Shown here: one piece after another, positions 1 through 63,602 of the stretch | Numbering within the stretch: position 1 is the first letter of the stretch | Layout: each line of letters starts with the position of its first letter | Assembly (NCBI GenBank): GCA_042565725.1 | Contig: JBHORK010000006.1 | Coordinates: forward strand, 1,374-65,373 | Direction of reading: 5' to 3' | Length of the DNA stretch: 64,000 nucleotides | DNA from: Verrucomicrobiota bacterium | GTDB lineage: Bacteria; Verrucomicrobiota; Kiritimatiellia; UBA8416; JBHORK01 | Made by a program: the position numbers and the translations under genes | Notes under the pieces: generated by a model | Databases searched by the model: none | What the model was told of the DNA's origin: nothing | What the model saw: only the letters and a program-made list of their open reading frames with translations

Positions 1-202
1 GAGCATCAGCGCTTATTTCAACGCCCGGTATTCCTTCCAGTCTCTTATTCTCACACGCTTCCAGGAAACGGTCTATTCCGGCGGTGCTGTCGTGGTCGGT
101 CAATGCCATCGCGGTCAGACCGCAATCCAAAGCTTTATCAACTAATTCTTCCGGCGTAAAACTTCCATCAGAAAACATTGAATGTACGTGTAAATCAATC
201 AT
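1..202 (-). CDS. PHP-domain metal-dependent phosphoesterase, N-terminal fragment running off the window
   Basis: Reverse translation from the ATG at 202 gives MIDLHVHSMFSDGSFTPEELVDKALDCGLTAMALTDHDSTAGIDRF..., a canonical PHP N-terminus (DLHxHS, SDG, TDHD). The frame stays open to position 1. It is absent from the ORF track because it is truncated. Confidence 0.8.
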   Translation of the reverse strand, partial: MIDLHVHSMFSDGSFTPEELVDKALDCGLTAMALTDHDSTAGIDRFLEACENKRLEGIPGVEISADA

Positions 203-287
203 GGGGTTGGTTCTTAGTTCTTGGTTCTTGGTTCTTGGTTGCTCTGCCCACTGTCCTCAGCCCTCTCTTCCGTTCATCACTTATCAT

Positions 288-683: not shown

Positions 684-748
684 GGTTACAAGTTGCAAGT
701 TACAAAATCTTGAATCCCTCTTCTTCTGTAACCTGTAACCCCTGTAAC
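684..748. repeat. Inverted arrays of the heptamer GTTACAR / CTGTAAC forming a long imperfect hairpin in the queD leader
   Basis: GGTTACAAGTTGCAAGTTACAA (684-705) faces CTGTAACCTGTAACCCCTGTAAC (726-748) across a 20-nt spacer. Confidence 0.7.
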
Positions 749-1431: not shown

Positions 1432-1664
1432 GACAATCTCCTTATTCTATAGAGTTCTGCAAAACACAGAGCGGACATCATATATGGAACTCGCAAGGAA
1501 ATTCAAACTTTCTTTTCTACATTCCCCGTTAAACACCAGCGCACCCGTCCGCTGCGGGTTCGATTTTTGAACGAAATTCTTCCTGCATTCTGAAATAAAC
1601 ACAAGAACACAGCACAGTCATTAACCATTGACCATCATCAGCCATCCATTTACCATGGCTACCC

Positions 1665-8551: not shown

Positions 8552-9376
8552 TTACGGCATCGTATATAAACCTGTCAGAACAAACTTTGTCAGCGAAGCC
8601 CCGCTGACATCCCCTTTGCCGATAGCCATAAGCTGTTTGTCGATAAATTCTTCAATTTTCTGCATCTTTTTACCTTGTTTTACTTCTGTTTTTGAGCTCA
8701 AGCGAATTTTTCTGCCCTTCTCATCTACAAGCCATAACCCTTGCTTATCTTTTGTGACTGTACCAAATATAATTTTAAGGGCCTTCTGGGCTTCTTTCTC
8801 GTCCACTCTCTTAACACTTGAGATCATGAACTTTCCTATATTATCCTTGCTGAGATCCACCCCTCCGCCTGTAGCTATAACTCTCGCGCCGGCCATATCC
8901 CGCAGCTTTACGCCTTCTTCTCCGGATTTCACACGATTCGTTAAATATACCTTTCTGCCCAAATCATCTACCAGGCATAAGTATGTATCGCCGTGTGTAA
9001 CCGAAACAAAAAGCCTGCCTTCCAAAGTTGTTGCGCCACCCTCTCCCTCTCCTGCTTTACTCAGGCCTGTTACAGTGAATCCTTTTAAAGACTTATCGGT
9101 ACTTGTCCCCCTGCCCGTGGCTACAACCTTCTCACCAAGAAAATCTTCCGTATTTACAGCATTTTTACCAAATCCTATCTTTCGTGGCAAACTAACTTTC
9201 CTGCCCTTATCATCCACCAGCCAGAACGAAGCACCTTCTTTTTTAACTGTGCCCTCTACAGTTGGCGACCCTTTTTTTGTCTTTTTCTTCTGTGTCTTAG
9301 AGTTTGCAGCCACAGCTCCGGCCACTAATGAAAATACAAATCCTGCAATCAATAGATTTAACAACAAACGTTTCAT
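8552..9376 (-). CDS. Secreted lysine-rich repeat protein, paralog 1 (three ~75-aa modules)
   Basis: Signal peptide MKRLLLNLLIAGFVFSLVAGAVA with the RBS AAGGAGGAG upstream. Module pattern is EGTVKKxGxxFWLVDDKGRKVxL...AVNTEDFLGxxVxATGxG. Paralogs lie at 26297-26998 and 28130-28726. Confidence 0.85.
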   Translation of the reverse strand: MKRLLLNLLIAGFVFSLVAGAVAANSKTQKKKTKKGSPTVEGTVKKEGASFWLVDDKGRKVSLPRKIGFGKNAVNTEDFLGEKVVATGRGTSTDKSLKGFTVTGLSKAGEGEGGATTLEGRLFVSVTHGDTYLCLVDDLGRKVYLTNRVKSGEEGVKLRDMAGARVIATGGGVDLSKDNIGKFMISSVKRVDEKEAQKALKIIFGTVTKDKQGLWLVDEKGRKIRLSSKTEVKQGKKMQKIEEFIDKQLMAIGKGDVSGASLTKFVLTGLYTMP

Positions 9377-9504: not shown

Positions 9505-9587
9505 AGAGCTTTCTAAACTGATCCAACTTCGCTAACGGACAAATGTTTAGGATTTAGAAATTAGAATTTAGAATTTTCTTAATGATA

Positions 9588-9960
9588 GGGGTATAGCTTC
9601 CCGCTTCGCAGAACAGGCAGTTGGTCACAATTTTATGGGGGTATAGCTCACCCCGACGTCTGCGCGCCGGGATGGCAAGCAGTTGGTAGAGACGAAGTTC
9701 CCGTACTTGTTTCGGGACGTCCCGATGTCTGCGCATCGGGAAGGCCAGGGGTCTAACATTATTGTCGAACTCCTGGTGTAACTTTAAAAATAAACTATGG
9801 GGGTATAGCTCACCCCGACGTCTGCGCGCCGGGATGGCAAGCAGTTGGTAGAGACGAAGTTCCCGTACTTGTTTCGGGACGTCCCGATGTCTGCGCATCG
9901 GGAAGGCCAGGGGTCTAACATTATTGTCGAACTCCTGGTGTAACTTTAAAAATAAACTAT
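9588..9960 (+). repeat. tRNA-Ala-like pseudo-units: one partial copy (9588-9636) plus two identical 162-bp tandem units (9637-9798, 9799-9960), in register with the true tRNA
   Basis: Each unit starts GGGGGTATAGCTCA, which equals tRNA positions 1-14, and also carries AGTTGGTAGAG and AGGCCAGG. These tRNA blocks are interrupted by hairpin inserts, and the acceptor 3' strand is lost. Confidence 0.85.
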
Positions 9961-10033
9961 GGGGGTATAGCTCAGTTGGTAGAGCGTCTGAATGGCATTC
10001 AGAAGGCCAGGAGTTCGAATCTCCTTACCTCCA
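9961..10033 (+). tRNA. tRNA-Ala (anticodon GGC)
   Basis: Hand-folded 73-nt cloverleaf: acceptor GGGGGTA/TACCTCC with the G3:U70 Ala identity pair, D arm GCTC-AGTTGGTA-GAGC, anticodon arm TCTGA-ATGGCAT-TCAGA, T arm AGGAG-TTCGAAT-CTCCT, discriminator A. No encoded CCA. Confidence 0.9.
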
Positions 10034-10053
10034 CTTCACGGAGTAACCCAAAC

Positions 10054-10323
10054 ATCCTGTATTATACATACATTCTTCAAAGCATATCAACAGGCAGATT
10101 TTATGTAGGTTCATGTAACCACCTGATCGAACGTTTCCATGAACACCAGAGCAATTACAGCAAAGCAACACGCGGTCGCGGGCCATGGTGGATGCCATAT
10201 TTTGAGACTTACCCTACCCGTTCGGACGCTCAAAAACGTGAGTATGAAATCAAGAGCAAGAAGAGCAGCCGCTATATACGAACTATTATCTGGAAAGCCT
10301 TTCCTCTATTAGAATTAATGTAG
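10054..10323 (+). CDS. Stand-alone GIY-YIG nuclease-domain protein (~89 aa), cassette copy 1; start codon uncertain
   Basis: YYTYILQSISTGRFYVGSCNHLIERFHEHQSN...RGPWWMPYFETY...AQKREYEIKSKK fits the GIY-YIG (YhbQ/Slx1-like) core. There is no ATG, GTG or TTG between the tRNA and the domain. The tracked TTG start at 9976 lies inside the tRNA. Confidence 0.65.
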   Translation: MLYYTYILQSISTGRFYVGSCNHLIERFHEHQSNYSKATRGRGPWWMPYFETYPTRSDAQKREYEIKSKKSSRYIRTIIWKAFPLLELM

Positions 10324-10399
10324 AGCGGTCCGATGCGAAGACATCGGACAGGCCAGGAGTTCGAATCTCCTTACCTCCACTTCACGGAGTAACCCAAAC

Positions 10400-10669
10400 A
10401 TCCTGTATTATACATACATTCTTCAAAGCATATCAACAGGCAGATTTTATGTAGGTTCATGTAACCACCTGATCGAACGTTTCCATGAACACCAGAGCAA
10501 TTACAGCAAAGCAACACGCGGTCGCGGGCCATGGTGGATGCCATATTTTGAGACTTACCCTACCCGTTCGGACGCTCAAAAACGTGAGTATGAAATCAAG
10601 AGCAAGAAGAGCAGCCGCTATATACGAACTATTATCTGGAAAACCTTTCCTCTATTAGAATTAATGTAG
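10400..10669 (+). CDS. Stand-alone GIY-YIG nuclease-domain protein, cassette copy 2 (A to T substitution near the C-terminus); start codon uncertain
   Basis: Lies 346 bp downstream of copy 1 and has the same reading frame relative to the unit. It is missing from the ORF track because it has no canonical start. Confidence 0.6.
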   Translation: MLYYTYILQSISTGRFYVGSCNHLIERFHEHQSNYSKATRGRGPWWMPYFETYPTRSDAQKREYEIKSKKSSRYIRTIIWKTFPLLELM

Positions 10670-10726
10670 AGCGGTCCGATGCGAAGACATCGGACAGGCC
10701 AGGAGTTCGAATCTCCTTACCTCCAC

Positions 10727-21851: not shown

Positions 21852-21880
21852 ACGTTGTCCAAAAAGATTTTGGACAACGT
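21852..21880. terminator. Bidirectional hairpin between convergent sppA and the lipoprotein gene
   Basis: ACGTTGTCCAAAA-AGA-TTTTGGACAACGT, a perfect 13-bp stem beginning 1 nt after the sppA stop. Confidence 0.65.
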
Positions 21881-21923
21881 ATGGTTAATGGTTGATGGTT
21901 CGGATAGTTCGGATGGCCTATAA

Positions 21924-23865: not shown

Positions 23866-24024
23866 CTAATGGGCCGGATGATCTTTAGGCTTGGCATCAG
23901 CAGGATGTTCAACTGTCGCTTTCTTCTCTGGGGCTACGACTTCATCTTTCTTGCTGCATCCAACAAGACTCACGGAAAGCATTGCTACGGCTAGCAGTGC
24001 TGCAATGGCGTGTACCAATTTCAT
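23866..24024 (-). CDS. Small lipoprotein (52 aa), not in the ORF track
   Basis: My translation is MKLVHAIAALLAVAMLSVSLVGCSKKDEVVAPEKKATVEHPADAKPKDHPAH*. It has a signal peptide and the lipobox LVGC. Confidence 0.45.
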   Translation of the reverse strand: MKLVHAIAALLAVAMLSVSLVGCSKKDEVVAPEKKATVEHPADAKPKDHPAH

Positions 24025-24191
24025 GATGTTTCCCTATTTATATTATTTATAACAATAGAAACAATAAACTTTTAAGCACAAAGTGTCTAGCACTAACATG
24101 CGCGACAGCGCCGAAGAATCCGATTCGCTTTACAGCGCAGTCGGCTCAGCAAAGGTAAATTCATATCATTACGAGACGATCAGAAGAAGAA

Positions 24192-25994: not shown

Positions 25995-26296
25995 CCTGCC
26001 TTCTTCGCTTAAGAGATTGCTTTATAAACCGGAGGCGGGCGAATTGATAACAGGAATCAAACAATAATGCAACAAGTAGTATCACTATTGTCCGGTAAGC
26101 CGGACAGCAGTGAATGGTTAATGATTGATGGTTAATGGTTTATGGAGATCATCAAGATGCATCGATTTAAACTCAAGAAGAACACTGAAGAAGGGCTGAT
26201 TCATGGAATTGTCGATCATTTTGAGGTGTTCGGCATAGTTATCCCGCCTCGGCGGGAGCAAACACTTCCGCACTGTGAACTCATGCAATGTTCAGG

Positions 26297-26998
26297 CTAT
26301 TTATCTTTTTTCTTTTTCTTTTTCGGCTCTTTTTTATCCGGGTCTTTTCCCTCTGATTTTTCCTCACCAATTACTTCTACGTCCCTTATATCAAACTTTC
26401 TCAAGCCAGGCCCGCTGGTAAGTCCGTAGCCTATAAACCTGCATCTCTTGCCCACAAGAGATGTTCCTCTGGGCATCTTTTTCCTGTTAGGATACGTTAC
26501 TTTATCGCCCGCGTCGGTTACCGCCCAGATATTCTTTCCTTCTGCCACAACCGTGCCTTCGAAAGCCTTCATGCCGGGAGGACACCCTTTACCCCCTCCT
26601 CCTGCCCCGCTTGCTGTTTTTTCCGGCGCTTTCTTCAAACCTGTTACCCTGAATCCTGATATAGAGTTCTTGGTGATCGTTCCAATACCTGTAGCTTCAA
26701 CTCTCATGTCTAGAAAGTCTTCTGTGTTTATAGCGGTCTTGCCAAATCCTATCTTTCGATTTAAGCGAACTTTATTACCCTTATCGTCTACCAGCCAGAA
26801 TGCGAAACCGTCTTTTTTAACTGTACCTTCGATAATTGTCGGCTCGCTTCCTGTTTTTCCCTCTTTTATCGCTCCTCTTTGCAGCTCGAATTCTTCCAGC
26901 CTGCTGATGCCGGTACCTCCAACACACACAACTGCTGAACCTGCCGCTAATGAGAACACAAATCCTGCAACCAATACCCTTAACAACAAACGCTTCAT
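26297..26998 (-). CDS. Secreted lysine-rich repeat protein, paralog 2 (two modules and a poly-Lys C-terminal tail)
   Basis: MKRLLLRVLVAGFVFSLAAG signal, IIEGTVKKDGFAFWLVDDKGNKVRL...AINTEDFLDMRVEATGIG module, and a C-terminal KKEPKKKKKKDK tail. Confidence 0.85.
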   Translation of the reverse strand: MKRLLLRVLVAGFVFSLAAGSAVVCVGGTGISRLEEFELQRGAIKEGKTGSEPTIIEGTVKKDGFAFWLVDDKGNKVRLNRKIGFGKTAINTEDFLDMRVEATGIGTITKNSISGFRVTGLKKAPEKTASGAGGGGKGCPPGMKAFEGTVVAEGKNIWAVTDAGDKVTYPNRKKMPRGTSLVGKRCRFIGYGLTSGPGLRKFDIRDVEVIGEEKSEGKDPDKKEPKKKKKKDK

Positions 26999-27991: not shown

Positions 27992-28129
27992 TCAATTTGA
28001 GAAGTTTGCATCGCAAACGGTTTACCTGTCCGCAAAGTGAAGTATGGTTAAGTATTACAGAGGTTACAGGCTACAAGGGTTACAGGCAGGAAAAGAGACG
28101 CCGCAACCGTTTGACGATAGCCGTTCAGG

Positions 28130-28726
28130 TTAAGGCAATTTAAGCATATACATTTTTTTTACCTTAAACTTTTCCAATGAATCGCCGCTGATATCTCCCT
28201 CACCGACAGCCAGAACCCTCTTATCGAGAAAATCTTCCGTGTTTACGGCTTCTTCGCGTTTTCCTATTCTTTTGGTCAAACGAACTTTTCTGCCCTTCTC
28301 GTCTACCAAATAGAATGTGCCTTTCTCCTTGGTAATTTTACCTATTACAGATGGCGCTGCATTTTTTGCTTCTTTTTCGTCAACTTTCCTTATGCTTTTT
28401 ACACCAAGCCATCTTATGCTCTTCTCATCTATTTTTGCATCTCCCATGGCCGTACCTGTAACTACCACTCTCATGCCGAGAAGATCTTCCGTGTTTACGG
28501 CTTCTTCACCTTTTCCATATTTCGCCCTTAACCTTGCGAAATTGCCCCAATCGTTTACCACCCAGAACATTCCCTTGCTATCTTTCGTGACCACGCCTAC
28601 TGCAGTTACAAGAGGCTTGTCCTCTTTTGGTTTTTCCTTCTTCGACTTTTCTTTCGCAACTGCGGTCCCGACCACTAATAAGAACACAAAACCTGCAATC
28701 AAAACATCCAACAACAAACGTTTCAT
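28130..28726 (-). CDS. Secreted lysine-rich repeat protein, paralog 3 (two modules)
   Basis: MKRLLLDVLIAGFVFLLVVGTAVA signal with the RBS AAAGGAGGAA. Contains ...FYLVDEKGRKVRLTKRIGKREEAVNTEDFLDKRVLAVGEG. Lies 28 nt downstream of rlmB. Confidence 0.85.
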   Translation of the reverse strand: MKRLLLDVLIAGFVFLLVVGTAVAKEKSKKEKPKEDKPLVTAVGVVTKDSKGMFWVVNDWGNFARLRAKYGKGEEAVNTEDLLGMRVVVTGTAMGDAKIDEKSIRWLGVKSIRKVDEKEAKNAAPSVIGKITKEKGTFYLVDEKGRKVRLTKRIGKREEAVNTEDFLDKRVLAVGEGDISGDSLEKFKVKKMYMLKLP

Positions 28727-28754
28727 GGAATTCCTCCTTTTTAATATTTCTATA

Positions 28755-29483
28755 TCAACTAGAACTGAGGGCAAACAGGGATATGCCAGCGGCAACGGAT
28801 GCGTTCAGAGAATTGATCCGGCCCTGCTGATTGATCGAAACAACGAAATCGGCCGTATTCAGTATGAACTGCCCTACCGATTTATCTTCACCGCCTATTA
28901 CAACCAGTATCTTATCGGAAAGCTTTTCGCTCACTGTTCGAATGTCCTCTTTCCCGCTGGCATCAAGCGCCACTACCTGATAACCCTCATTCTGCGCGGT
29001 ACGCACATAAGAATTAGCGGATGAATCTTTGGCGATATCAAGAAATTCCGTGGCGCCGGCCGATACTTTAACTACAGAGGGATAGATATCGGGCACACCC
29101 CTCTTCGATAACAATACGGTATTGAACCCGAATATTTCCGCACTGCGCAATATGGCTCCGACATTATGCGGATCTTCAACATTATCCAGAAGCAATATAC
29201 GCGGCCGACCCCAGAATGTGTCAGACGGCTGATACGGATACGGCCTGACTTTCAGAACAACACCCTGATGATCCCGACTGCCTGAAAGACTCATTACGCG
29301 CTGTTTATCTACCCATTCAACAGGGATATTCATTTTTTCCAGATACTGCACAAGCTTGCGAATGCGCGGCTGGCGCTCTGCAGCCTTATTCAGGTATGCC
29401 TCGTATATCTTGCGCTTCCCTGCGCGCACTACTTCAAATACGGGATTAATCCCATAAATGTATTCTCGACTCGGCTTAGCCAT
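28755..29483 (-). CDS. rlmB: 23S rRNA (guanosine-2'-O-)-methyltransferase RlmB (SpoU/TrmH family)
   Basis: YIYGINPVFEVV N-terminal substrate-binding domain and SpoU motifs (LLLDNVEDPHNVGAILRSAE; VVIGGEDKSV; SLNASVAAGI). Confidence 0.85.
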   Translation of the reverse strand: MAKPSREYIYGINPVFEVVRAGKRKIYEAYLNKAAERQPRIRKLVQYLEKMNIPVEWVDKQRVMSLSGSRDHQGVVLKVRPYPYQPSDTFWGRPRILLLDNVEDPHNVGAILRSAEIFGFNTVLLSKRGVPDIYPSVVKVSAGATEFLDIAKDSSANSYVRTAQNEGYQVVALDASGKEDIRTVSEKLSDKILVVIGGEDKSVGQFILNTADFVVSINQQGRINSLNASVAAGISLFALSSS

Positions 29484-29623
29484 GCGTAATCTCCAAACAT
29501 ACGGTTATCGGTTGTGCTGCTCGAATCGGCTATCGTTAATCGGTTACGTAATCTTTTCCCCTATTTGTAACTTCTATAATACGCAACCCCAACCGTAAAC
29601 CGTTTACAGCGTAAACTCCTCCA

Positions 29624-30709
29624 TTATATTTCCTCAGGAATAACAGGGTCTCCGTTCCCTTGAACACCAACTTTTGCGTATCTCGCATTCCCGCCGCCGG
29701 GCGGGATCACTGCGATGATGTTTCCTCTTTCGGGTTTTGGAACATAAGTGGGGTCGGCATGTTGTTTTAGCTCCTCCTCATATGTCCCTTCCGTGGTCAC
29801 GACATCAGCGCCTACTTCCCTCAAAGACAACCCTGTCACCGGGTGAGGATAAAGGCCTCTTTCAAGAGTCTGCCCGGCTACTACTGTTGAGCTTATATCC
29901 TGCTCAGCGGATACAACAGCCACTTTCGGCATCATACGCTCATAAACCTCAAGCGGCGCACTATGCATACTACCGTGATGCGCAACTTTGACCAGCCAAC
30001 AACTCAAGAGATTAACCATTTTCTTGACCTGCGGATGATGTTTCGATGTCCGCTCAATAAAGGGATATTCCTGACTGATTCTGGCCCAGCTGTCAAATTC
30101 AGCGTCCCCACCCAGAATTGCAACAGCGGCTCCGGCCTTCCTTGTAATATCAGGATCAACATTGCCCACATATCTTAATGACTGAGTAATTACAGCATCT
30201 TCATTGCAATTTTCAATACGCAGCACAATAGACGCATTATTCATGTCGACCCCATAGGTTGCATACCTGTTCCTCAGCGTAACGGATGGAGAAAGGGCCG
30301 TAACACGAACATTACCGTAATACCATTCCATGCCGGACGAAACACGGCGCATTTTAATTTTATGCTTGCTGACTTCCCCCAGTATTCTGCGGTATGTCAT
30401 GGAGTTATGCCGGAACCCGCTGTCCCAGAATTCCGCCGGCCTTGTATCAGGATCCGCCATCAGGCTGGCTATTCCTGAAATATGGTCGGAATGTGGGTGT
30501 GTCGCGCAGACAAAAGCGATTTCGCTTCTTGGCCGAACAGTATTCAGTCTGTCCAGATAATTCATGGATTTCTTCGCGTTATAAAAATCCACTATTCCCC
30601 AAAGTCTTTTCCCGTGATCGTCCTCGGGAAATTCAATTACGATCGCATCTCCAAGCCCAACATCCAGAAAATGTATAACAAGGTCTTCTTTCTGTATTAA
30701 TTTGCTCAT
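29624..30709 (-). CDS. ComEC/Rec2-type metallo-beta-lactamase-fold hydrolase
   Basis: HFLDVGLGDAIVIEFP, CATHPHSDHISG (HxHxDH) and VAHHGS. Last gene of the patatin operon. Confidence 0.8.
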   Translation of the reverse strand: MSKLIQKEDLVIHFLDVGLGDAIVIEFPEDDHGKRLWGIVDFYNAKKSMNYLDRLNTVRPRSEIAFVCATHPHSDHISGIASLMADPDTRPAEFWDSGFRHNSMTYRRILGEVSKHKIKMRRVSSGMEWYYGNVRVTALSPSVTLRNRYATYGVDMNNASIVLRIENCNEDAVITQSLRYVGNVDPDITRKAGAAVAILGGDAEFDSWARISQEYPFIERTSKHHPQVKKMVNLLSCWLVKVAHHGSMHSAPLEVYERMMPKVAVVSAEQDISSTVVAGQTLERGLYPHPVTGLSLREVGADVVTTEGTYEEELKQHADPTYVPKPERGNIIAVIPPGGGNARYAKVGVQGNGDPVIPEEI

Positions 30710-32361: not shown

Positions 32362-32556
32362 GATATTCCTCCATATGTTAAAAACAATTTACCCTAATAT
32401 TATCAGAATATATATCTGCCCTGCCACTATTTTAGTTAACAGGGAATTCCTGAGCTTTTTGCCCGCAAATTTGTTCGCCTCATATATGTCTTTTCTTCAA
32501 AAGGCAACATTTGTAGTATGATTCTTTTATTTTAGACTAAAAAGAATGGAGAAAAT

Positions 32557-36715: not shown

Positions 36716-37834
36716 TCAGAAAGTTATATACTGTTCTGCTTTCCGTAGCCGTTTGCCGACCCGGCCTATATTTTCAAGATTCCTGAGTCTGCCGCCCCTG
36801 CTCCTGACTTTCAGAATAAAATCCGCCGTTACATGGCCCAAACCAGGCACCCGCAGAAGTTCATGTCTGTCGGCCTTATTAATATCTACAGGAAATTTTT
36901 CAGGATGACACTTCGCCCAGGATTCCTTTGGATCAATTAGCAGCGACAAATTGCCGTCATTACCTACCGGTATCTCTTCAGCATCAAACCCATATTTCCT
37001 GATCAGGAAATCAACCTGATACAAACGATGTTCTCTCGTAAGCAAATCGCCATTGCCGGCCGCTGAACTTTCGCCCGGAAGATCCTGATCGCCCAATCCC
37101 CTTTGATACGCCGAAAAGTATATCCTGTTTAAGCCAAGTCGCTTGTATAGACCCCAGGAGTATTTGATAATTTCTCTATCCGTCTCATCAGAAGCGCCCA
37201 CAACAAACTGTGTTGTCTGTTTTACTCTGCTGTATCTATTGCCCCTGCCCGTCAGTTTACTGATTAGCTTTAACGGTCTGATAACGTCTTTGATATAATC
37301 TTTGCTCAGAGAAAGTTTCCGGAAATTATTTTCACCCGGCGCTTCAATATTAATTGAAACAGAATTGCCTAACGAAACAGCTTCTTCAACAGCGGAATCC
37401 GACGCGCCCGGTATAACTTTAAGATGAATATATCCTCTGAACCTCTTTTTCTTCCTTAAAATCCAGGCTGCATCGTTAATCTTCGCCATGGCCGCGTCAG
37501 GGTTCTCTCTTACTCCACTGCTCAGGAAAAGACCCTGCACCATGTTTTTTCGATAATATTCCAGAAATATCTCCGCAAGCCGGTCCGGCTGAAGTGAACA
37601 GCGGCGTGTATCATTGTCCGCGCGAAGCGGACAATATTTACAGTCATTCACACATGAATTGGACAGCAGTGTTTTGAAGATGTAGGAAACCCCGCCCTGC
37701 GGTACGGTTACAGGATATATCCAGGTATTATTTTTCGATCGATGGCGCCGGTCATCTTTTTGGGATCCGCAGGCGCAGGCAAGATCGTACTGTCCGTCAC
37801 GCGACAGAATCTCAAGTTTGTCTTCGGCGTTCAT
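36716..37834 (-). CDS. Putative DNA modification/repair radical SAM protein with C-terminal helix-hairpin-helix
   Basis: CVNDCKYCPL (CxxxCxxC) radical SAM cluster. C-terminal INKADRHELLRVPGLGHVTADFILKVR is an HhH motif. Lies downstream of lexA. Confidence 0.75.
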   Translation of the reverse strand: MNAEDKLEILSRDGQYDLACACGSQKDDRRHRSKNNTWIYPVTVPQGGVSYIFKTLLSNSCVNDCKYCPLRADNDTRRCSLQPDRLAEIFLEYYRKNMVQGLFLSSGVRENPDAAMAKINDAAWILRKKKRFRGYIHLKVIPGASDSAVEEAVSLGNSVSINIEAPGENNFRKLSLSKDYIKDVIRPLKLISKLTGRGNRYSRVKQTTQFVVGASDETDREIIKYSWGLYKRLGLNRIYFSAYQRGLGDQDLPGESSAAGNGDLLTREHRLYQVDFLIRKYGFDAEEIPVGNDGNLSLLIDPKESWAKCHPEKFPVDINKADRHELLRVPGLGHVTADFILKVRSRGGRLRNLENIGRVGKRLRKAEQYITF

Positions 37835-38018
37835 AATACAGGAGTCAGAAGTCAGGATTCAGAATGCTTCGAGAATAAGCGTTTAATAGTTTGCTGACTT
37901 CCTGCAGCAGCAAATTTCTCTCAGACACATCACCATCTTCATACTTCTTTCCCGGATATTTTGACAGGATTTACGGGATTTACAGGATGATAAAAGAAAA
38001 ACACAATCCCTTATCAAT

Positions 38019-38096
38019 CAGGCGGTTTTTTAACCGCATGATTGACAACTCTTTATCCTGTTGATCTTGTTGATCCCGTCTAAAACCTCTTCCTTC
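38019..38096. repeat. Dispersed ~80-100-bp intergenic element, copy A
   Basis: CAGGCGGTTTTTTAACCGCATGATTGACAACTCTTTATCCTGTTGATCTTG...GATCCCGTCTAAAACCTCTTCCTTC. A near-identical copy lies at 53598-53697. Confidence 0.75.
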
Positions 38097-38101
38097 CCTC
38101 T

Positions 38102-41386: not shown

Positions 41387-41586
41387 CCGTATCTTGTGAA
41401 ACGTATCTCGTATTTCGACGTTGGAAGCTCGATGTTCGAAGCTCTCCTTTCCCCTGACATCTGAACACTGAAACCTTCTTCCCTCTCCCCTGCTTGCAAC
41501 CTGTAACTCCTGCAATCTCTTCGCTACAGCTTGTCTTAACCGTACACTTTGTGTAAACTGCACAGCTAATTTAAAACCTTAAGTTC

Positions 41587-50030: not shown

Positions 50031-50259
50031 TTCCCCTCCTATAACTTATGCCGCCAAGTTTAAGAATCTCGTATAAAACAATAGTTTATTGATGTCAAAC
50101 ACAACATACATATATTTTACAATCAAGAAACGCACAAAAATAAATATACTCCAGGCACAAGCAAGATAATGAAACCACAGATAAGGAAGTGCAAAGAAAG
50201 AATGGACAACTATTCATGCTTTTCGGGGACCTTCAACGCTCTCATAACGAAATCCCCGC

Positions 50260-52618: not shown

Positions 52619-52790
52619 CTTGTCTAATTCCCAATTTCTCCCTTGTTCATCAACCATTAACCATTTTCCATTAACCATCCCCCTTCGCCAAGGCTACGGC
52701 GGACAAGACGGGGGACAAGTCAACCATTCTCCTCTTTCCATCCCTCTTTTCTCTTCCGCTCAAGTTTCAGGTTTCAGCCCTCATCCCTCT

Positions 52791-53579
52791 CTAAAACTCC
52801 CATGTAATGCCGACACCAGCGCAGTCATTGATCAAGATCGGAGAGATACTCACCAATTGATCTTCTGCCTGAGTCTTATCCACAGAAGTTACGGCCAGAT
52901 ACGCCATCCACCAGCCGAGCAGAGACTGCGAAAAATAATGGTCTTCATCATTTATTCTGGAAAGTCCGCATAAAACCGAACCGGCATAGAACAGGGATTT
53001 AGCGGCGCGGTTCTTTGTCATTTTTGCCGCCGATATAAACGGAACAGCGCCCATGAATGAATGACCCGACACGCCATTGCCATCTTCGAACGGGCGCCAT
53101 GTAGAATCATATTCATGTTCGTCATCGGTTGGCCGCGATCCGCCTGTAGTAACCTGCAGCGCCAGCATTGCCGGTCCTCCGACTATGATCGCGCGTAAAG
53201 ATCTCTGGCCCCATTCCCCCGCAATATCGCACGCTTTATTTCCATCACCAAACACACTGAGCGCGTATGCGCCGGCATACACAGGAACAGTTATCAGTCC
53301 ATTCCCAAACTCCTTGACCATATCGGCCATATCGTCAGTATTCGCGCTTTTAACATCATTGGTATACCATTCATAAATATCTTCATCAGCAGTACTGTTA
53401 GCCAAAATAGCGCCCGCCGCAAGTCCGCCGCCAAGTTTGAGCAGATTTTCACCTGAATAAAAATTAATATAATCGCATTTTACATCATCACAGAAAGCGC
53501 TGAATACTGAATCCTCGCCTGCATGAACAATAAACGCAAAACACATAACAAAAAACATCGTCAACGATATCTTTCTCAT
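52791..53579 (-). CDS. Secreted PAP2 / class-A acid-phosphatase-like protein (divergent third motif)
   Basis: Signal peptide, then GGSRP...VSGHSF...SRINDEDHYFSQ, compared with the PAP2 pattern RP / SGH / SRx5Hx3D. Confidence 0.55.
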   Translation of the reverse strand: MRKISLTMFFVMCFAFIVHAGEDSVFSAFCDDVKCDYINFYSGENLLKLGGGLAAGAILANSTADEDIYEWYTNDVKSANTDDMADMVKEFGNGLITVPVYAGAYALSVFGDGNKACDIAGEWGQRSLRAIIVGGPAMLALQVTTGGSRPTDDEHEYDSTWRPFEDGNGVSGHSFMGAVPFISAAKMTKNRAAKSLFYAGSVLCGLSRINDEDHYFSQSLLGWWMAYLAVTSVDKTQAEDQLVSISPILINDCAGVGITWEF

Positions 53580-53597
53580 ATTATACCCTTTCTCGAA

Positions 53598-53697
53598 CAG
53601 GCGGTTTTAACCGCATGATTGACAATTCTTTATCTTGTTGATCTTGCCTGCCCCGTGTTTATCACTGGGGTTAATCCCGTCTAAAACTTCTTCCTTC
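53598..53697. repeat. Dispersed ~80-100-bp intergenic element, copy B (with a ~28-bp internal insertion)
   Basis: CAGGCGGTTTTAACCGCATGATTGACAATTCTTTATCTTGTTGATCTTG[cctgccccgtgtttatcactggggttaa]TCCCGTCTAAAACTTCTTCCTTC. It overlaps the GT39 stop codon. Confidence 0.75.
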
Positions 53698-56621: not shown

Positions 56622-57044
56622 TTAAAACGGCACATCATCAGTTTCCGCAGACGAGCCCCCAGCAACAGGAATGCCTACCTGTACAGAATCCTTTTTTGCG
56701 GAGCTTGAGCCTTTAGGAGAACCCAAAAACTGTACCCGACTTGCGCGCACACGCATTTTACTGCGTTTCTCACCATTCTGTGACTCCCACTGATCCAACT
56801 GCAAGCGTCCTTCTATAAGAACGCGTGAGCCTTTTGACAAATATTCCGCGCATGTTTCCGCCTGCCGACCCCAAGTCACAATATCTACAAAACAGGTTGT
56901 TTCAACGTTCTTGCCATCCCTGTTCTTATAAGCCTCAGAAGCCGCCAATCCCAGGTCGGCAACCGAAGTCCCTGACGGAATCTGCCGGATTTGCGGGTCC
57001 CGTGTCAGGTTCCCCATTAATACCACACGATTTAAACCAGTCAT
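56622..57044 (-). CDS. ssb: Single-stranded DNA-binding protein (canonical, with acidic C-terminal tip DDVPF)
   Basis: NRVVLMGNLTRDPQIR...OB fold..., a Gly/Ser-rich linker and ETDDVPF. Confidence 0.9.
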   Translation of the reverse strand: MTGLNRVVLMGNLTRDPQIRQIPSGTSVADLGLAASEAYKNRDGKNVETTCFVDIVTWGRQAETCAEYLSKGSRVLIEGRLQLDQWESQNGEKRSKMRVRASRVQFLGSPKGSSSAKKDSVQVGIPVAGGSSAETDDVPF

Positions 57045-57446
57045 TTTCTATCTCCTTCCTATTTCGTATCTCGTGAAGCGTATCTCGTATTTCGCCTTTC
57101 TCAACGTTCGATGTCCTCCCTTCATTTTCGTCTAGCGGTTGCGGCTTCCCCCCTCCAAAATTCCTAATTTTATCCGCGCCAAGTTCATCTGCGGTTCCTT
57201 TCTTTTTCTTCCCAATTTCTTCTTCTAATTCATGCTTCGCACTTCATGGCTTCCTTCTTCGCTCAAATAGCTACGAAGGATAAAACGCCGAACAAGTCAC
57301 TCATCATTTATAATTCCCTTCTCCCCCCCCTGAAACCCGACACCTGAAACCTTTTCTATCTCCATATATAGAAGGAAGAAATGAAAGAAAGGGTTTTCCG
57401 GAAAAAGTTAATATTTCTTCATGCGGGAGTCGGGAGTAGGAAAAGG

Positions 57447-58250
57447 TCAATCGTGTTTGGGAGGATTTTCCGTTTCTTTATCATCGCGGCTTTCAGAAAC
57501 AGTATTTTTTAAGTCCTTGCCTGTTTCGTAAGGGGTTCTCGACTCAGCCGCTAAAGGCAGTTCTTTTTTCTGTTCTAAATGATATGTAACAGCAGTATCA
57601 GGCCTTTCCTGCACAACTTTCATCAGTTCTGCTTCTTCCTGTTGATAGATTTTCCTTGGATCTTCCGGATGATAAATTGGCGGACCAACCCGTTTCTCGA
57701 GACCTATGGGTAAGTTGGCTTTTTCTGTCAGATGCTTAAACAAGGTCATCGCCTCATTTTTCTCGTCTTCCGATAAATCATCTACCATCCAGCTTTTTTG
57801 GAGAATATTTGACGGAATAGAATGTGCATTCCACAGACAGAGCACTTTCACACAGGGGACCTTGCGCCCTGTCAATAACTCTCCATTTGAAGCTGGTTCA
57901 GAAAAGCGGCTGTAAGGCGCGGCGAGGAAAGAATCATGTTTCGATTCCTGTAGAACAGCAACATATAGGGGTCTGTCTATGACAGGCGAGATTTCCGGTG
58001 AAAGAAGACGTATCTGGCCGGAGCGAACCGGCGGTTCATTCCTGACAGGATCAATGACGTTATCAACATCTTGCTCGCAGAGCTGTGGTGTTGTTTCTGT
58101 AGGCCTCTTATCATTTTCTACGTCTTTAGAGAGCTTAAGCTCCTTATCAATCTCCCACTCAGCCAGCCAACGCGCAAACCGCTGCTTCTGCCAGCCGGGC
58201 ACCGACTTGATCTTTAATTCCGGTAATTTTGTTTTTTTCTTTTTACTCAT
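57447..58250 (-). CDS. Hypothetical protein (267 aa, lysine-rich N-terminus and acidic C-terminus)
   Basis: Lies 12 nt downstream of the sigma-like ORF. I recognise no family. Confidence 0.65.
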   Translation of the reverse strand: MSKKKKTKLPELKIKSVPGWQKQRFARWLAEWEIDKELKLSKDVENDKRPTETTPQLCEQDVDNVIDPVRNEPPVRSGQIRLLSPEISPVIDRPLYVAVLQESKHDSFLAAPYSRFSEPASNGELLTGRKVPCVKVLCLWNAHSIPSNILQKSWMVDDLSEDEKNEAMTLFKHLTEKANLPIGLEKRVGPPIYHPEDPRKIYQQEEAELMKVVQERPDTAVTYHLEQKKELPLAAESRTPYETGKDLKNTVSESRDDKETENPPKHD

Positions 58251-59435: not shown

Positions 59436-59789
59436 TTATTCGTTCTTCCCGTTGTTAACTGGGCGGCCGAGGAAGTCCACGCGACTTGCCCGAACGCGCA
59501 ATTTGTTTCGTTTCTCCCCATTTTCGGTTTCCCACTGATCAAAGTGGAGTTTTCCTTCAACAAGTACATGCGAGCCTTTGGCAAGGTGTTCGCCGCATGT
59601 TTCCGCCTGTTTGCCCCACAGGGATATATCCACATAGCAGGTAGAACCATTGCCGTTTTTCTCATCATTCTTACGGCCCTGAGCAGTTGCCAGGCTCAGA
59701 TCGGCAACAGTCGCTCCTGTTGAGACTTTCCGTACTCTTGGATCTCTTGTCAAATTTCCTGCCAGCAGTACATGATTTACATTTGTCAT
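59436..59789 (-). CDS. SSB-like OB-fold protein lacking the acidic C-terminal tail (117 aa)
   Basis: NHVLLAGNLTRDPRVR...YVDISLWGKQAETCGEHLAKGSHVLVEGKLHFDQWE... is closely similar to the ssb OB domain at 56622-57044. It ends ...RPVNNGKNE with no D-D-x-P-F. Confidence 0.8.
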   Translation of the reverse strand: MTNVNHVLLAGNLTRDPRVRKVSTGATVADLSLATAQGRKNDEKNGNGSTCYVDISLWGKQAETCGEHLAKGSHVLVEGKLHFDQWETENGEKRNKLRVRASRVDFLGRPVNNGKNE

Positions 59790-60116
59790 TTTCTCTTCCT
59801 CCCTTGTTTTGTTGTTTTACCTGTCTTTTCCCTTACATTATCGACCGATACTAACATGAAGAAACGAGACGATCCGTTTTCCGGAATCTTTTTTAAAAAA
59901 TGAAAGAAAACTGTTTTTTGCATAATCCCGACGGAATTAATTCTGAATTCCCGTGGCGCGCCGTAGCTTCTGAGCGTAGGCGGCTAACTCCTGCTCGCCC
60001 GCCATAGCCTTGGCGGCGGCGGGACTCCTGACTCCTGCTTTTTACGCTATAGCTCAAAAAGCTCCTCTCAGTCTTCTCTTGCACGTATTCAGCATATTTG
60101 GAAGAATCTACGTCAA

Positions 60117-63354: not shown

Positions 63355-63446
63355 GGAAGTTCTCCTCCATCTTTATAATATTTTTACAACTTCAAAGCTT
63401 TTAAAAAGATAACCTTATTCCAATGCAAACGCAATAGACTTTTGAG

Positions 63447-63470
63447 CTTTTTGCGCTACAGCGCAAAAAG
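63447..63470 (-). terminator. Hairpin CTTTTTGCGC-TACA-GCGCAAAAAG downstream of the O-antigen-ligase-like gene
   Basis: Perfect 10-bp stem with A/T runs on both sides. Confidence 0.5.
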
Positions 63471-63602
63471 CAGTATTCAGGAGCCAGTATTCAGAATTCA
63501 GAATTAAATCCATCAGGAATATCCACACAGATAATGTCGTAAATCACTTGTTCACTTGGAGCCAATTGTGTTGTTTTTCCCATTCTAACTGCTGAATACT
63601 GA

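What the first reader, a model, noticed from the sequence alone, without database searches (positions are those of the whole stretch)
29484..29623. Intergenic spacers are built from locally reiterated 6-9-nt words, and the same word families recur at distant loci
Almost every spacer longer than ~60 bp contains 2-4 direct, slightly degenerate repeats of a short word. Several examples follow.
- GGTTCTT x4 at 206-242, immediately 5' of the PHP gene ATG.
- CCAT-rich ATTAACC/ATTGACC words at 1619-1664 (abutting the tsaB ATG) and 52651-52680, with their complement GGTTAAT/GGTTGAT at 21881-21917 and 26113-26145.
- GGTTACAG/CTGTAAC at 684-748, 28054-28090 and 41500-41515.
- AACCGAT/ATCGGTT and GTTTACG/CGTAAAC at 29484-29623.
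- TTCAGAA(T) at 37855-37867, 59941-59950 and 63471-63505.
- CAGGAGTCAGAAGTCAGG at 37839-37857, with its complement GGACTCCTGACTCCTG at 60022-60038.
- GGATTTAC x2 at 37963-37989.
- TTAGAAT x3 at 9550-9580.
- CTGAAAC/GTTTCAG at 41468-41476, 52764-52777 and 57341-57362.
The arrays occur in 5' leaders, sometimes directly abutting start codons that lack an SD. They also occur between convergent genes, so they are not simply terminators. They inflate several tracked ORFs with spurious N-terminal extensions such as MVNGKWLMV. I do not know of a described element class with these properties.
Basis: seen in the sequence. Interest (0 to 1): 0.6.

Follow-up and report, generated by a model that had tools for sequence, protein, structure and literature searches.

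The report
Seven-base tandem repeats between genes
About a third of the gaps between genes in this sediment bacterium carry short runs of a repeated 7-base word; this is a real but already described kind of bacterial microsatellite, whose function is still unknown.

Summary
The repeats are real, but the description is too broad. The signal is a 7-nt period, not 6-9 nt. In 37 spacers the lag-7 autocorrelation has z = 8.9, with harmonics at 14 and 21. Lags 6 and 8 are at chance, and period 9 is a minor second class.

Twelve of 33 spacers of 60 nt or more hold a significant heptamer array, not "almost every" one. Eleven of 15 arrays lie in the 11% of the window that is non-coding. The flagged spacer, 29484-29623, is a marginal, degenerate case.

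Unit families do recur at distant loci: AACCATT at 4 sites, MTYCTGA at 3, and CTGAAAC at 3. They also occur in other PVC-group genomes.

This is a described class. It corresponds to the heptanucleotide simple-sequence repeats noted by Mrazek (2007), the cyanobacterial STRRs, the TAACTGA repeats of Beggiatoaceae, and the MTYCTGA arrays of Geobacter metallireducens. Some arrays here form inverted pairs that fold as hairpins. Elsewhere the same architecture brackets PF05635 (23S-IVS/Avd-like) genes, but the window has no such gene.

The most likely origin is replication slippage in DNA where frameshifts are tolerated. Function is unproven. This is a new member of a known kind, in a new lineage.

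The parts
207..240 (.). (TTGGTTC)x4.9. On the minus (mRNA) strand this reads (AACCAAG)n and ends 5 nt before the PHP gene ATG at 202. There is no SD.
   Evidence: TRF score 61. Per-spacer P = 0 in 300 shuffles. Sequence read. The same unit abuts the queD ATG in relative L084.
685..748 (.). Inverted pair of heptamer arrays, (GTTACAA)3 at 685-705 facing (CTGTAAC)3 at 726-748. It forms a hairpin in the queD leader, between the stop at 754 and the ATG at 671.
   Evidence: RNA fold of 672-753 gives -19.9 kcal/mol against -9.8 +/- 2.7 in shuffles (z -3.8).
1619..1664 (.). CATTAAC CATTGAC CAT..., degenerate AACCATT-family words running up to the tsaB ATG at 1665. There is no SD.
   Evidence: (P = 0.01).
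9546..9576 (.). (TTTAGAA)x4.4 upstream of the tRNA-Ala region.
   Evidence: Contigs of other organisms in runs X1 and X2 match only this array, with unlike flanks.
21881..21914 (.). (ATGGTTA)x3 followed by (GATAGTTCG)x2.3. It lies next to a 13-bp terminator-like hairpin (21852-21880) between convergent genes.
   Evidence: fold z -3.9.
26110..26145 (.). (AATGGTT)x4.7. It lies next to the hairpin at 26082-26109 and 115 nt upstream of the BipA start at 25994.
28054..28090 (.). GGTTACAG-type words with a 16-nt period, between convergent genes.
   Evidence: The period-7 test is only marginal (P = 0.047).
29501..29603 (.). Focal spacer. Degenerate heptamers ACGGTTA TCGGTTG and ATCGGCT ATCGTTA ATCGGTT (29501-29545) face CAACCGT AAACCGT (29590-29603). 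This is a weak inverted pair.
   Evidence: I1: 14 nt, 86% complementary; inverted 12-mer match of 10/12, reached by none of 20 shuffles. Searches are marginal. The fold is not significant.
37839..37865 (-). On the minus strand: ATTCTGA ATCCTGA CTTCTGA CTCCTG (MTYCTGA family), ending 5 nt before the ATG at 37834. There is no SD.
37964..38076 (.). Inverted period-9 arrays, (ACAGGATTT)2.8 and (ATCCTGTTG)2.4, around a 14-bp hairpin (38013-38045). The right half recurs at 53586-53646.
   Evidence: D11: 95% identity over 42 nt.; fold of 37835-38101 has z -4.1.
41388..41478 (+). (CGTATCT)-type words at 41388-41417 and CTGACAT CTGAACA CTGAAAC at 41455-41478. The left module recurs at 57065-57125.
   Evidence: (D17).
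52648..52678 (.). (CATTAAC)x4.4, lying 30 nt upstream of the real start (52618) of a GT2 glycosyltransferase. It creates the spurious MVNGKWLMV ORF extension.
52760..52789 (.). (GTTTCAG)2 and (CCCTCAT)2, just after the stop of the gene at 52791-53579.
57065..57100 (-). On the minus strand: GAAATAC GAGATAC GCTTCAC GAGATAC GAAATAG, just upstream of the SD of the ssb gene (ATG at 57044).
   Evidence: (P = 0.013).
57330..57350 (+). CTGAAAC ... CTGAAAC with 14-nt spacing.
60023..60064 (+). (GACTCCT)2.1 (MTYCTGA family) fused to the palindrome GCTTTTTACGCTATAGCTCAAAAAGC. The module recurs inverted at 63444-63484.
   Evidence: fold z -3.6.
63444..63602 (.). The palindrome GAGCTTTTTGCGCTACAGCGCAAAAAGC, followed by (CAGTATT/CAGAATT)n at 63470-63505, with an inverted partner CTGAATACTGA at 63590-63602.
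   Evidence: z -3.0; 11/12 inverted match, P about 0.05.

Best explanation
These are heptanucleotide simple-sequence repeats: short tandem arrays of 2-5 copies of a 7-nt unit.

They belong to the class already described as over-represented in the intergenic DNA of many bacteria. That class includes the LSSRs of Mrazek 2007, cyanobacterial STRRs, Xanthomonas GGGAATC, Beggiatoaceae TAACTGA and Geobacter MTYCTGA.

Shown here:
- a sharp 7-nt period;
- strong confinement to non-coding DNA;
- a small set of unit families reused at several loci and in other PVC-group genomes;
- spacers that are short and array-free in more distant relatives.

Inferred:
- The arrays arise and turn over by slipped-strand mispairing at replication.
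- They persist only where a gain or loss of 7 nt does not break a reading frame.
- Once present they behave as incidental leader or spacer sequence. Solo arrays give unstructured leaders without an SD. Inverted pairs give hairpins.
- They are not a dedicated new element class.
For: Periodicity:
- Lag-7 z is 8.9, with harmonics at 14 and 21, and nothing at lags 6 or 8.
- There are 15 arrays against 1.7 expected.
- Twelve of 33 spacers are individually significant.
- Eleven of 15 arrays lie in the 11% of the window that is non-coding, P = 3e-8.

Turnover:
- The spacers around queD are 82 and 85 nt here and are filled by arrays. They are 5 and 36 nt, with no array, in relative L081.
- The closest relative, L084 (QueD 75% identical), has (AAGGTAACN)2(AAGAACN)4 abutting the queD ATG. 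The units are the same as in the window, but their number and placement differ.

Same class elsewhere:
- In 1.28 Mb of other loci (fetched through BipA and QueD; the nearest are PVC-group, the distant ones belong to other phyla) there are 100 period-7 arrays, against 49-58 for periods 5, 8, 10 and 11.
- Those loci carry the same unit families: ACCATTA in L001 and L017; CTGACTC in L005 and L042; GTTCTTC in L042; GATAACT, which is TAACTGA, in L003.

Literature:
- Heptamers are the most abundant long-SSR class, and a polymerase-slippage origin has been proposed (PMC4679880; PMC4692102).
- Inverted pairs, and variation in length between close species, are reported.
- Five-copy MTYCTGA arrays are described in G. 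metallireducens (PMC2700814). All units of 37839-37865, 60023-60037 and 63485-63505 fit that consensus apart from the end units: a partial CTCCTG in the first two and ATACTG in the third.
Against: - Slippage of random seeds does not explain why units are so non-random. CTGA/TCAG occurs in 19 of 92 units against 4.3 expected (z 7.5). The same 18-mer array occurs in the window and in L001, which is only 77% identical in BipA.
- No copy-number polymorphism could be observed. The only public runs that hold this organism have about 2x fragmentary contigs and show no 7-nt indels.
- Several arrays sit next to hairpins or are parts of 40-80-nt modules that recur as units. That fits dispersal of small elements better than in-situ slippage.
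Confidence: 0.65

Rival explanations
1. The arrays and gene-less hairpins are ends or remnants of heptamer-armed hairpin cassettes. This is the architecture that brackets PF05635 (23S rRNA IVS / Avd-like four-helix-bundle) genes. They would have spread by insertion and then lost their cargo.
For: - A metagenome scan for (CTGANNN)4 returned 120 loci, many with a TCAG-array followed by a CTGA-array.
- In five of those loci the arrays flank a PF05635 gene: both sides in L106, L109, L088 and L190, and one side seen in L203. Pfam E-values for the four scanned (L106, L190, L203, L088) are 1e-31 to 1e-38. L109 rests on tblastn alone (E 9e-51 against the L088 protein).
- In the reverse direction, nearly all of the 18 PF05635 loci found by protein similarity in viral contigs (about 11 distinct) have a period-7 array upstream and its complement downstream.
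- In the Kiritimatiellia relative L042, an MTYCTGA-type inverted pair encloses a 30-aa PF05635 remnant (tblastn E = 1.5e-5).
- The window has four inverted pairs: 685/726, 29501/29591, 37964/38055 and 63470/63590.
- The Coxiella IVS has (GACAGAT)3 before its S23p ORF, with strain-variable copy number (PMC4990558).
Against: - The window has no PF05635 gene or remnant (tblastn with four queries at E <= 0.01, and one query at E <= 1).
- At least 14 of the 22 arrays tested have no inverted partner within 400 nt.
- Only 5 of the 120 CTGA-array loci carry the gene.
- My PF05635 sample is biased, because the queries came from armed genes. An earlier check in this scan (an unverified AI note) put armed genes at only about 3-8% of the family and saw no transposition signature.
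- No mobilising enzyme is known.
Confidence: 0.2
2. The arrays exist because they are functional cis-elements. Candidates are repeated binding sites for a global regulator or a single-strand-binding (cold-shock or S1-type) protein, translation-enhancing leaders that replace the SD, or RNase III / terminator stems.
For: - Four arrays end 0-13 nt before start codons that have no SD (PHP, queD, tsaB and the gene at 36716-37834). By comparison, 21 of 57 genes have a strong SD. L084 has the same layout.
- Units are sequence-biased, with a CTGA core at z 7.5.
- In the window and PVC relatives, the start-proximal CTGA arrays I could place were all in the mRNA-sense orientation, 9 of 9.
- Published proposals exist: translational control for TAACTGA; effects on recO and recF expression in Nostoc; and "global regulator sites" in Geobacter.
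Against: - The orientation bias did not generalise. In 120 metagenome loci the CTGA-sense to antisense counts were 43:34 upstream of starts and 49:54 after stops.
- The AACCATT family occurs in both orientations relative to genes and also between convergent genes.
- The arrays are absent from the orthologous spacers of more distant relatives, so they are not conserved regulatory sites.
- There is no Rfam match.
- Promoter and terminator scans are at chance level.
Confidence: 0.12
3. The pattern is a chance product of skewed intergenic composition or low-complexity sequence.
For: - The focal spacer alone is only marginally non-random.
- A few listed examples are weak or marginal by period-7 tests: 28054-28090 (P = 0.047) and 41402-41417 (P = 0.017).
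Against: - Dinucleotide-preserving shuffles give z 8.9 at lag 7 only.
- There are 15 arrays against 1.7 expected.
- Word sharing between spacers has z 10.
Confidence: 0.01
4. The arrays are phase-variation (contingency) switches that turn neighbouring genes on and off by changes in copy number.
For: - They lie in promoters and leaders.
- Heptamer copy number varies among Coxiella strains and between Xanthomonas species.
Against: - The neighbouring genes are housekeeping genes (queD, tsaB, bipA, ssb and a SpoU methylase), not surface or restriction genes.
- The arrays are short and imperfect (2-5 copies, 78-92% matches), which makes them poor slippage substrates.
- No polymorphism data are available.
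Confidence: 0.02

Closest known systems
Heptanucleotide long simple-sequence repeats of prokaryotes (Mrazek, Guo and Shah 2007, as summarised in PMC4679880 and PMC4692102)
   Same: - Tandem 7-nt units.
- Over-represented relative to other unit lengths.
- Concentrated in intergenic DNA.
- Phylogenetically patchy.
   Different: - The arrays here are short (2-5 copies) and imperfect.
- The lineage (PVC group, Lentisphaerota/Kiritimatiellia-like) was not among those reported in the papers I could search.
Geobacter metallireducens 'class 3' sites: five tandem heptanucleotides, consensus MTYCTGA, arranged as strand-switching pairs (PMC2700814)
   Same: - The units at 37839-37865, 60023-60037 and 63485-63505 fit MTYCTGA (ATTCTGA, ATCCTGA, CTTCTGA, CTCCTGA).
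- The location is intergenic.
- Inverted partners exist (63470/63590).
   Different: - A different phylum.
- Fewer copies.
- Most copies here are solo rather than paired.
- No regulator is known in either case.
TAACTGA direct repeats of marine Beggiatoaceae, Cyanobacteria and some Bacteroidetes (MacGregor 2015, PMC4679880)
   Same: - A CTGA-containing heptamer.
- Two to six copies.
- Often directly upstream of start codons in place of an SD.
- Scattered across phyla.
   Different: - The exact unit TAACTGA is absent from the window as a repeat (0 forward and 1 reverse single copy). It does occur in relative L003.
- Many different units coexist here, instead of one dominant unit.
Cyanobacterial STRR heptamers (CCCCAGT, TTGGTCA, CAACAGT; Calothrix/Nostoc; cited in PMC4692102) and Xanthomonas/Nostoc GGGAATC / GGGGAYT repeats
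   Same: - Intergenic heptamer arrays.
- Several unit families per genome.
- Inverted pairs able to form stem-loops.
- Length differs between close relatives.
   Different: - STRR units occur in the window only at chance level (3-6 copies each, never in tandem).
- The units here are not G-quadruplex-forming.
- HIP1 is absent, so this is not a cyanobacterium.
ORF-bearing 23S rRNA intervening sequences and PF05635 (S23p/Avd-like) genes in heptamer-array stems (Coxiella IVS, PMC4990558)
   Same: - Inverted heptamer arrays form a long stem.
- The MTYCTGA-type units are the same as around PF05635 genes or remnants in L042 and L217-L219.
   Different: - The window has no PF05635 gene or remnant.
- It is not in rRNA.
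- Most arrays are unpaired.

Membership tests
Heptanucleotide simple-sequence repeats (LSSR type) | Head-to-tail copies of a 7-nt unit | tested here: met
   TRF reports period 7 at 207, 685, 726, 9546, 21881, 26113, 37839, 52648, 60023 and 63485. My own detector finds 15 arrays.
Heptanucleotide simple-sequence repeats (LSSR type) | More and longer arrays than composition predicts, specific to this unit length | tested here: met
   Lag-7 z is 8.9, with lags 6 and 8 at chance. There are 15 arrays against 1.7 +/- 1.2 expected. Twelve of 33 spacers reach P <= 0.02.
Heptanucleotide simple-sequence repeats (LSSR type) | Enrichment in non-coding DNA | tested here: met
   Eleven of 15 arrays lie in the 11.2% of the window that is non-coding, P = 3e-8.
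Heptanucleotide simple-sequence repeats (LSSR type) | Copy number changes between close strains (slippage) | tested here: inconclusive
   No close strain is available; the nearest QueD is 75% identical. Runs X1 and X2 hold only scraps and show no 7-nt indels. L084 shows the same unit with a different number and placement.
Heptanucleotide simple-sequence repeats (LSSR type) | Genome-wide, not local | not testable with these tools
Earlier notes from two other pieces of the genome report the same arrays, but I did not verify them.
Geobacter-type MTYCTGA arrays | Tandem heptamers fitting MTYCTGA | tested here: met
   On the minus strand there are consecutive matches at 37845, 37852 and 37859, and at 63477, 63491 and 63498. 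On the plus strand there is a match at 60025. Consensus taken from PMC2700814.
TAACTGA direct repeats (MacGregor 2015) | Unit TAACTGA in direct repeats | tested here: not met
   The window has no tandem TAACTGA. Only the CTGA core is shared.
Cyanobacterial STRR | Units CCCCAGT / TTGGTCA / CAACAGT in tandem, in a cyanobacterial genome | tested here: not met
   These units occur 3-6 times each and never in tandem. HIP1 count is 0. BipA relatives are PVC-group MAGs.
PF05635 heptamer-armed hairpin cassette / rRNA IVS | PF05635 gene or remnant between inverted heptamer arrays | tested here: not met
   tblastn with four PF05635 proteins gives no hit in the window. Pfam on small ORFs of the window gives none.
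PF05635 heptamer-armed hairpin cassette / rRNA IVS | Two complementary arrays forming a stable stem | tested here: inconclusive
   Met at 672-753 (z -3.8), 37835-38101 (z -4.1) and 63400-63602 (z -3.0). Not met at the focal spacer or for 14 or more solo arrays.
Known structured RNA families (Rfam) | Covariance-model match | tested here: not met
   Only tRNA-Ala reaches gathering score in the whole window. Nothing credible lies in 57000-57500.

The most novel reading that the evidence does not exclude
The solo arrays, the gene-less hairpins and the PF05635-carrying cassettes are three states of one cross-phylum system. The heptamer unit, often with a CTGA core, would be the recognition module of a conserved trans-acting factor. 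That factor might be the Avd-like four-helix-bundle protein or a host nucleic-acid-binding protein. It would both generate or spread the arrays and use them at the RNA or DNA level. The arrays in this PVC genome would then be footprints of that system, not neutral microsatellites.
Probability: 0.15. Interest if true: 0.65.

Novelty: new member of a known kind. Interest (0 to 1): 0.3.

Why it matters
- **Annotation.** The arrays distort gene calls in this lineage. One example is the spurious MVNGKWLMV extension. They also occupy the place of the ribosome-binding site of several housekeeping genes.
- **Distribution.** The result extends a poorly understood, phylogenetically patchy repeat class to the PVC group (Lentisphaerota/Kiritimatiellia-like).
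- **Shared units.** Particular units, such as MTYCTGA and other CTGA-core heptamers, are shared with Geobacter, Beggiatoaceae and Cyanobacteria. Neutral slippage does not easily explain this.
- **Open questions.** Why the period is seven, and why these particular words recur, has been open since 1990 and 2007. This window adds data but does not resolve it.

Tried and rejected
1. **Cyanobacterial origin or STRR identity.** Rejected. HIP1 is absent, and STRR units occur at chance level.
2. **Riboswitch, leader RNA or sRNA.** Rejected. There are no Rfam hits.
3. **Focal spacer as a structured hairpin.** Rejected. Fold z is -0.1 for RNA and -1.4 for DNA.
4. **CTGA arrays always lie in the mRNA sense.** This held for 9 of 9 start-proximal arrays in the window and PVC loci. 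It failed in 120 metagenome loci, at 43:34 and 49:54, so I dropped it as a general rule.
5. **Replication-strand (primase CTG) explanation.** Not pursued. In the divergent region of L042, the two arrays each point towards their own gene.
6. **Copy-number polymorphism in public reads.** No information. The organism is present only as roughly 2x scraps.
7. **Lag-7 signal in relatives.** Most of the 80 BipA loci show none. Exceptions are L042 (z 3.7) and L003 (z 2.4), so enrichment at this density is lineage-specific.
8. **PF05635 remnant in the window.** None found.
9. **Promoter and terminator consensus scans.** At chance level.
10. **Whole-genome analysis.** An exact-protein look-up for BipA found no other contig.
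Full report
**Setting**

The window has about 45% G+C and no cyanobacterial HIP1 sites. Its BipA protein is at most 77% identical to those of Lentisphaerota, Kiritimatiellia and Victivallales MAGs. Public runs that hold pieces of it are sediment metagenomes.

The focal spacer, 29484-29623, lies between two minus-strand genes. One is a SpoU-type methyltransferase (28755-29483), which has a GGAG Shine-Dalgarno sequence. The other is a metallo-beta-lactamase-like gene (29624-30709). Rfam finds only a tRNA in the whole window.

Yes, but it is sharper and narrower than described.

- I pooled 37 spacers (5089 nt) and compared them with 200 dinucleotide-preserving shuffles. The fraction of identical bases at lag 7 is 0.320 against 0.265 +/- 0.006 (z 8.9).
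- Harmonics appear at lag 14 (z 4.0) and lag 21 (z 2.2). Lags 4-6, 8 and 10-13 are at chance. Lags 3 and 9 show smaller excesses.
- A simple array detector finds 15 period-7 arrays in the window against 1.7 +/- 1.2 in shuffles. Period 8 gives 0 against 1.6, and period 6 gives 3 against 1.6. Period 9 is also raised, at 12 against 1.5. Tandem Repeats Finder lists the same arrays.
- Eleven of the 15 arrays lie in the 11.2% of the window that is non-coding (P = 3e-8).
- Taken spacer by spacer, 12 of 33 spacers of 60 nt or more have a period-7 array at P <= 0.02 (0.7 expected), and five have a period-9 array.

So "6-9-nt words" is really heptamers plus a few nonamers. "Almost every spacer" is about one in three. 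Strict arrays cover only about 4% of non-coding bases. Several long spacers have none, for example 32362-32556, 50031-50259 and 23913-24191.

**The focal spacer**

It is one of the weakest examples. It holds degenerate heptamers: ACGGTTA TCGGTTG and ATCGGCT ATCGTTA ATCGGTT on the left, and CAACCGT AAACCGT on the right. The right set is partly complementary to the left set.

- The best tandem stretch has P = 0.027.
- Repeated 6-mers are 11 against 3.8 expected (P = 0.02), and repeated 7-mers are 4 against 1.0 (P = 0.05).
- The predicted fold is no better than shuffles: RNA z = -0.1 and DNA z = -1.4.

**Recurrence of word families**

This is confirmed. Shared 10-mers between different spacers number 124 pairs against 36.6 expected (z 10). 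The families are:

- AACCATT/ATGGTTA at 1619, 21881, 26110 and 52648;
- MTYCTGA (ATTCTGA, ATCCTGA, CTTCTGA, CTCCTGA) at 37839-37865, 60023-60037 and 63470-63505;
- CTGAAAC/CTGAACA at 41455, 52764 and 57330;
- GTTACAG at 685-748 and 28054;
- GARATAC at 41388 and 57065.

Some arrays are parts of 40-80-nt modules that recur as blocks:

- 38008-38070 matches 53586-53646;
- 41388-41450 matches 57065-57125;
- 60024-60064 matches the reverse complement of 63444-63484.

**Anatomy**

- *Solo arrays.* Four of them end 0-13 nt before start codons that have no SD: PHP, queD, tsaB and the gene at 36716-37834. One creates the spurious ORF extension MVNGKWLMV; the glycosyltransferase motif MTEFSIIIPTW places the real start at 52618.
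- *Arrays beside terminator-like hairpins* at 21852-21880, 26082-26109, and the palindromes at 60036 and 63444.
- *Inverted pairs.* Four pairs can fold: 672-753 (z -3.8), 37835-38101 (period 9, z -4.1), 63400-63602 (z -3.0) and, weakly, the focal spacer. At least 14 of 22 arrays have no inverted partner within 400 nt.

**Relatives**

No close strain is on record; the nearest QueD is 75% identical. Synteny of tsaB, purH-like, queD and PHP is conserved.

- In L081 (QueD 67% identical, 54% G+C) the spacers before queD and PHP are 5 and 36 nt and have no arrays. In the window they are 82 and 85 nt and consist largely of arrays.
- In L084 (75% identical, 46% G+C) the queD leader is (AAGGTAACN)2(AAGAACN)4 abutting the ATG. 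These are the units found around queD in the window, but in a different arrangement and position.

This looks like rapid local turnover of added DNA, not conserved operators.

Across the 80 BipA loci most show no lag-7 excess. Pooled, however, they hold about twice as many period-7 arrays as arrays of period 5, 8, 10 or 11 (100 against 49-58). The same unit families appear: (ACCATTA)n in L001 and L017, including an exact 18-mer shared with the window; (CCTGACT)n in L005; MTYCTGA and GTTCTTC arrays in L042; (CTGATCA)n in L002; (GATAACT)n, which is TAACTGA, in L003; and (CTGAACA)n in L022 and L046.

Units are not random. CTGA/TCAG is present in 19 of 92 units against 4.3 expected from unit composition (z 7.5). 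In the sediment runs, contigs of other organisms match only the arrays, with unrelated flanks.

**What is known**

Intergenic heptamer arrays are in print.

- Mrazek and colleagues (2007) found heptanucleotide repeats to be the most abundant long-SSR class and suggested polymerase slippage tied to a 7-nt footprint (summarised in PMC4679880, and PMC4692102).
- Rehm et al. describe GGGAATC and GGGGAYT arrays in Xanthomonas and Nostoc. These are intergenic, sometimes occur as inverted pairs, and differ in length between close species.
- MacGregor describes TAACTGA arrays directly upstream of start codons in Beggiatoaceae, Cyanobacteria and Bacteroidetes.
- A Nostoc preprint reports regulatory effects of heptamer repeats near start codons.
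- The G. metallireducens genome paper lists sites made of five tandem heptanucleotides with consensus MTYCTGA. The window's 37839, 60023 and 63485 arrays match this consensus apart from their end units.

I found no paper linking such repeats to PVC bacteria. The finding is therefore a new member of a known kind.

**Mechanism**

The best-supported reading is slipped-strand generation and turnover of 7-nt units, tolerated only where a 7-nt change does not shift a reading frame. This reading accounts for the sharp period, the confinement to non-coding DNA, the imperfect short arrays, and the gain and rearrangement between relatives. It does not by itself explain the strong unit bias or the cross-phylum sharing of units.

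I tested one functional idea, that CTGA arrays are oriented with the downstream gene. It held for nine of nine start-proximal arrays in the window and PVC loci. It failed in 120 metagenome loci selected only for (CTGANNN)4, where the counts were 43 sense against 34 antisense upstream of starts, and 49 against 54 after stops.

**The cassette lead**

Earlier notes of this scan link inverted heptamer arrays to PF05635 genes, the protein family of 23S rRNA intervening sequences, which is related to the DGR protein Avd (PMC10053308). I tested this independently.

- Five of the 120 CTGA-array loci carry a PF05635 gene flanked by the arrays: both sides in L106, L109, L088 and L190, one side seen in L203.
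- Nearly all of 18 PF05635 loci retrieved by protein similarity from viral contigs (about 11 distinct) have a period-7 array upstream and its complement downstream.
- In L042 an MTYCTGA pair encloses a 30-residue PF05635 remnant.
- The Coxiella IVS has (GACAGAT)3 before its ORF, with strain-variable copy number and an RNase III site at the first repeat.

My second sample is biased, because its queries came from armed genes. An earlier check in this scan, which I did not verify, puts armed genes at a few percent of the family and found no transposition signature.

The window contains no PF05635 gene or remnant, and most of its arrays are unpaired. This lead therefore stays a rival or complement to slippage, not the main explanation.

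**Verdict**

The feature is real and statistically solid. It is described too broadly, and it belongs to a known, if obscure, class. It is of modest interest. Its main value lies in gene annotation in this lineage, and as another data point on why particular 7-nt words recur across phyla.

Noticed in passing
L106 1928-2442; L088 3090-3530; L190 590-1135; L109 2169-2618; L207-L224: PF05635 (23S rRNA IVS / bAvd-like) genes in metagenome and viral contigs are bracketed by an upstream heptamer array and its complement downstream. The units differ from one cassette to the next: GGAGTCN, ATTGGGA, TAGGGTG, AGGAGGC, GAGAACT, GTTATAA.
   Followed up: partly
L042 20300-20472: In a Kiritimatiellia MAG, inverted MTYCTGA-type arrays (TCAGGAGTCAGAATTCAGAAT and CTGACTCCTGAATCCTGA) enclose a 30-residue remnant of a PF05635 gene (tblastn E = 1.5e-5).
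   Followed up: partly
window 52687-52702 (+) and 59999-60014 (-): A 16-nt motif, GCCAAGGCTAYGGCGG, occurs twice in opposite orientation, against 0.02 expected. Both copies lie inside G+C-rich hairpins next to heptamer arrays. Contigs of other organisms in the sediment runs match 52682-52716 at higher depth.
   Followed up: partly
window 38008-38070 and 53586-53646: A module of about 60 nt is repeated at 90-95% identity downstream of two unrelated minus-strand genes. It consists of the hairpin CAGGCGGTTTT..AACCGCATG followed by TTGACA and period-9 TTGATCTTG words.
   Followed up: partly
window 9634-10726: There are perfect tandem duplications of 162 nt (x2.1) and 346 nt (x2.1) around tRNA-Ala (9961-10033). 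An earlier finding of this scan covers this region (GIY-YIG mini-cassette).
   Followed up: no
window 56622-57044 and 59436-59789: Two ssb paralogues (140 and 117 aa) lie 2.4 kb apart and are 72% identical over 140 nt of DNA. Each has a strong SD, and heptamer words lie in the leader of the first.
   Followed up: no
window 8552-9376, 26297-26998, 28130-28795: Three paralogous genes of unknown function share a nearly identical N-terminal signal-peptide/lipobox region (72 nt, 83-86% identity) and an upstream SD. They have no Pfam hit.
   Followed up: no
L034 14030-14543: AAACTCCAAACTCC and its complement alternate four times at a spacing of about 165 nt. This suggests two adjacent small hairpin-bounded units in a 69% G+C Verrucomicrobiota MAG.
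   Followed up: no
window 200-204, 669-673, 1662-1667: The three array-abutted start codons at the left end of the window (PHP, queD, tsaB) are all preceded by CCC (CCCATG) and lack an SD.
   Followed up: no
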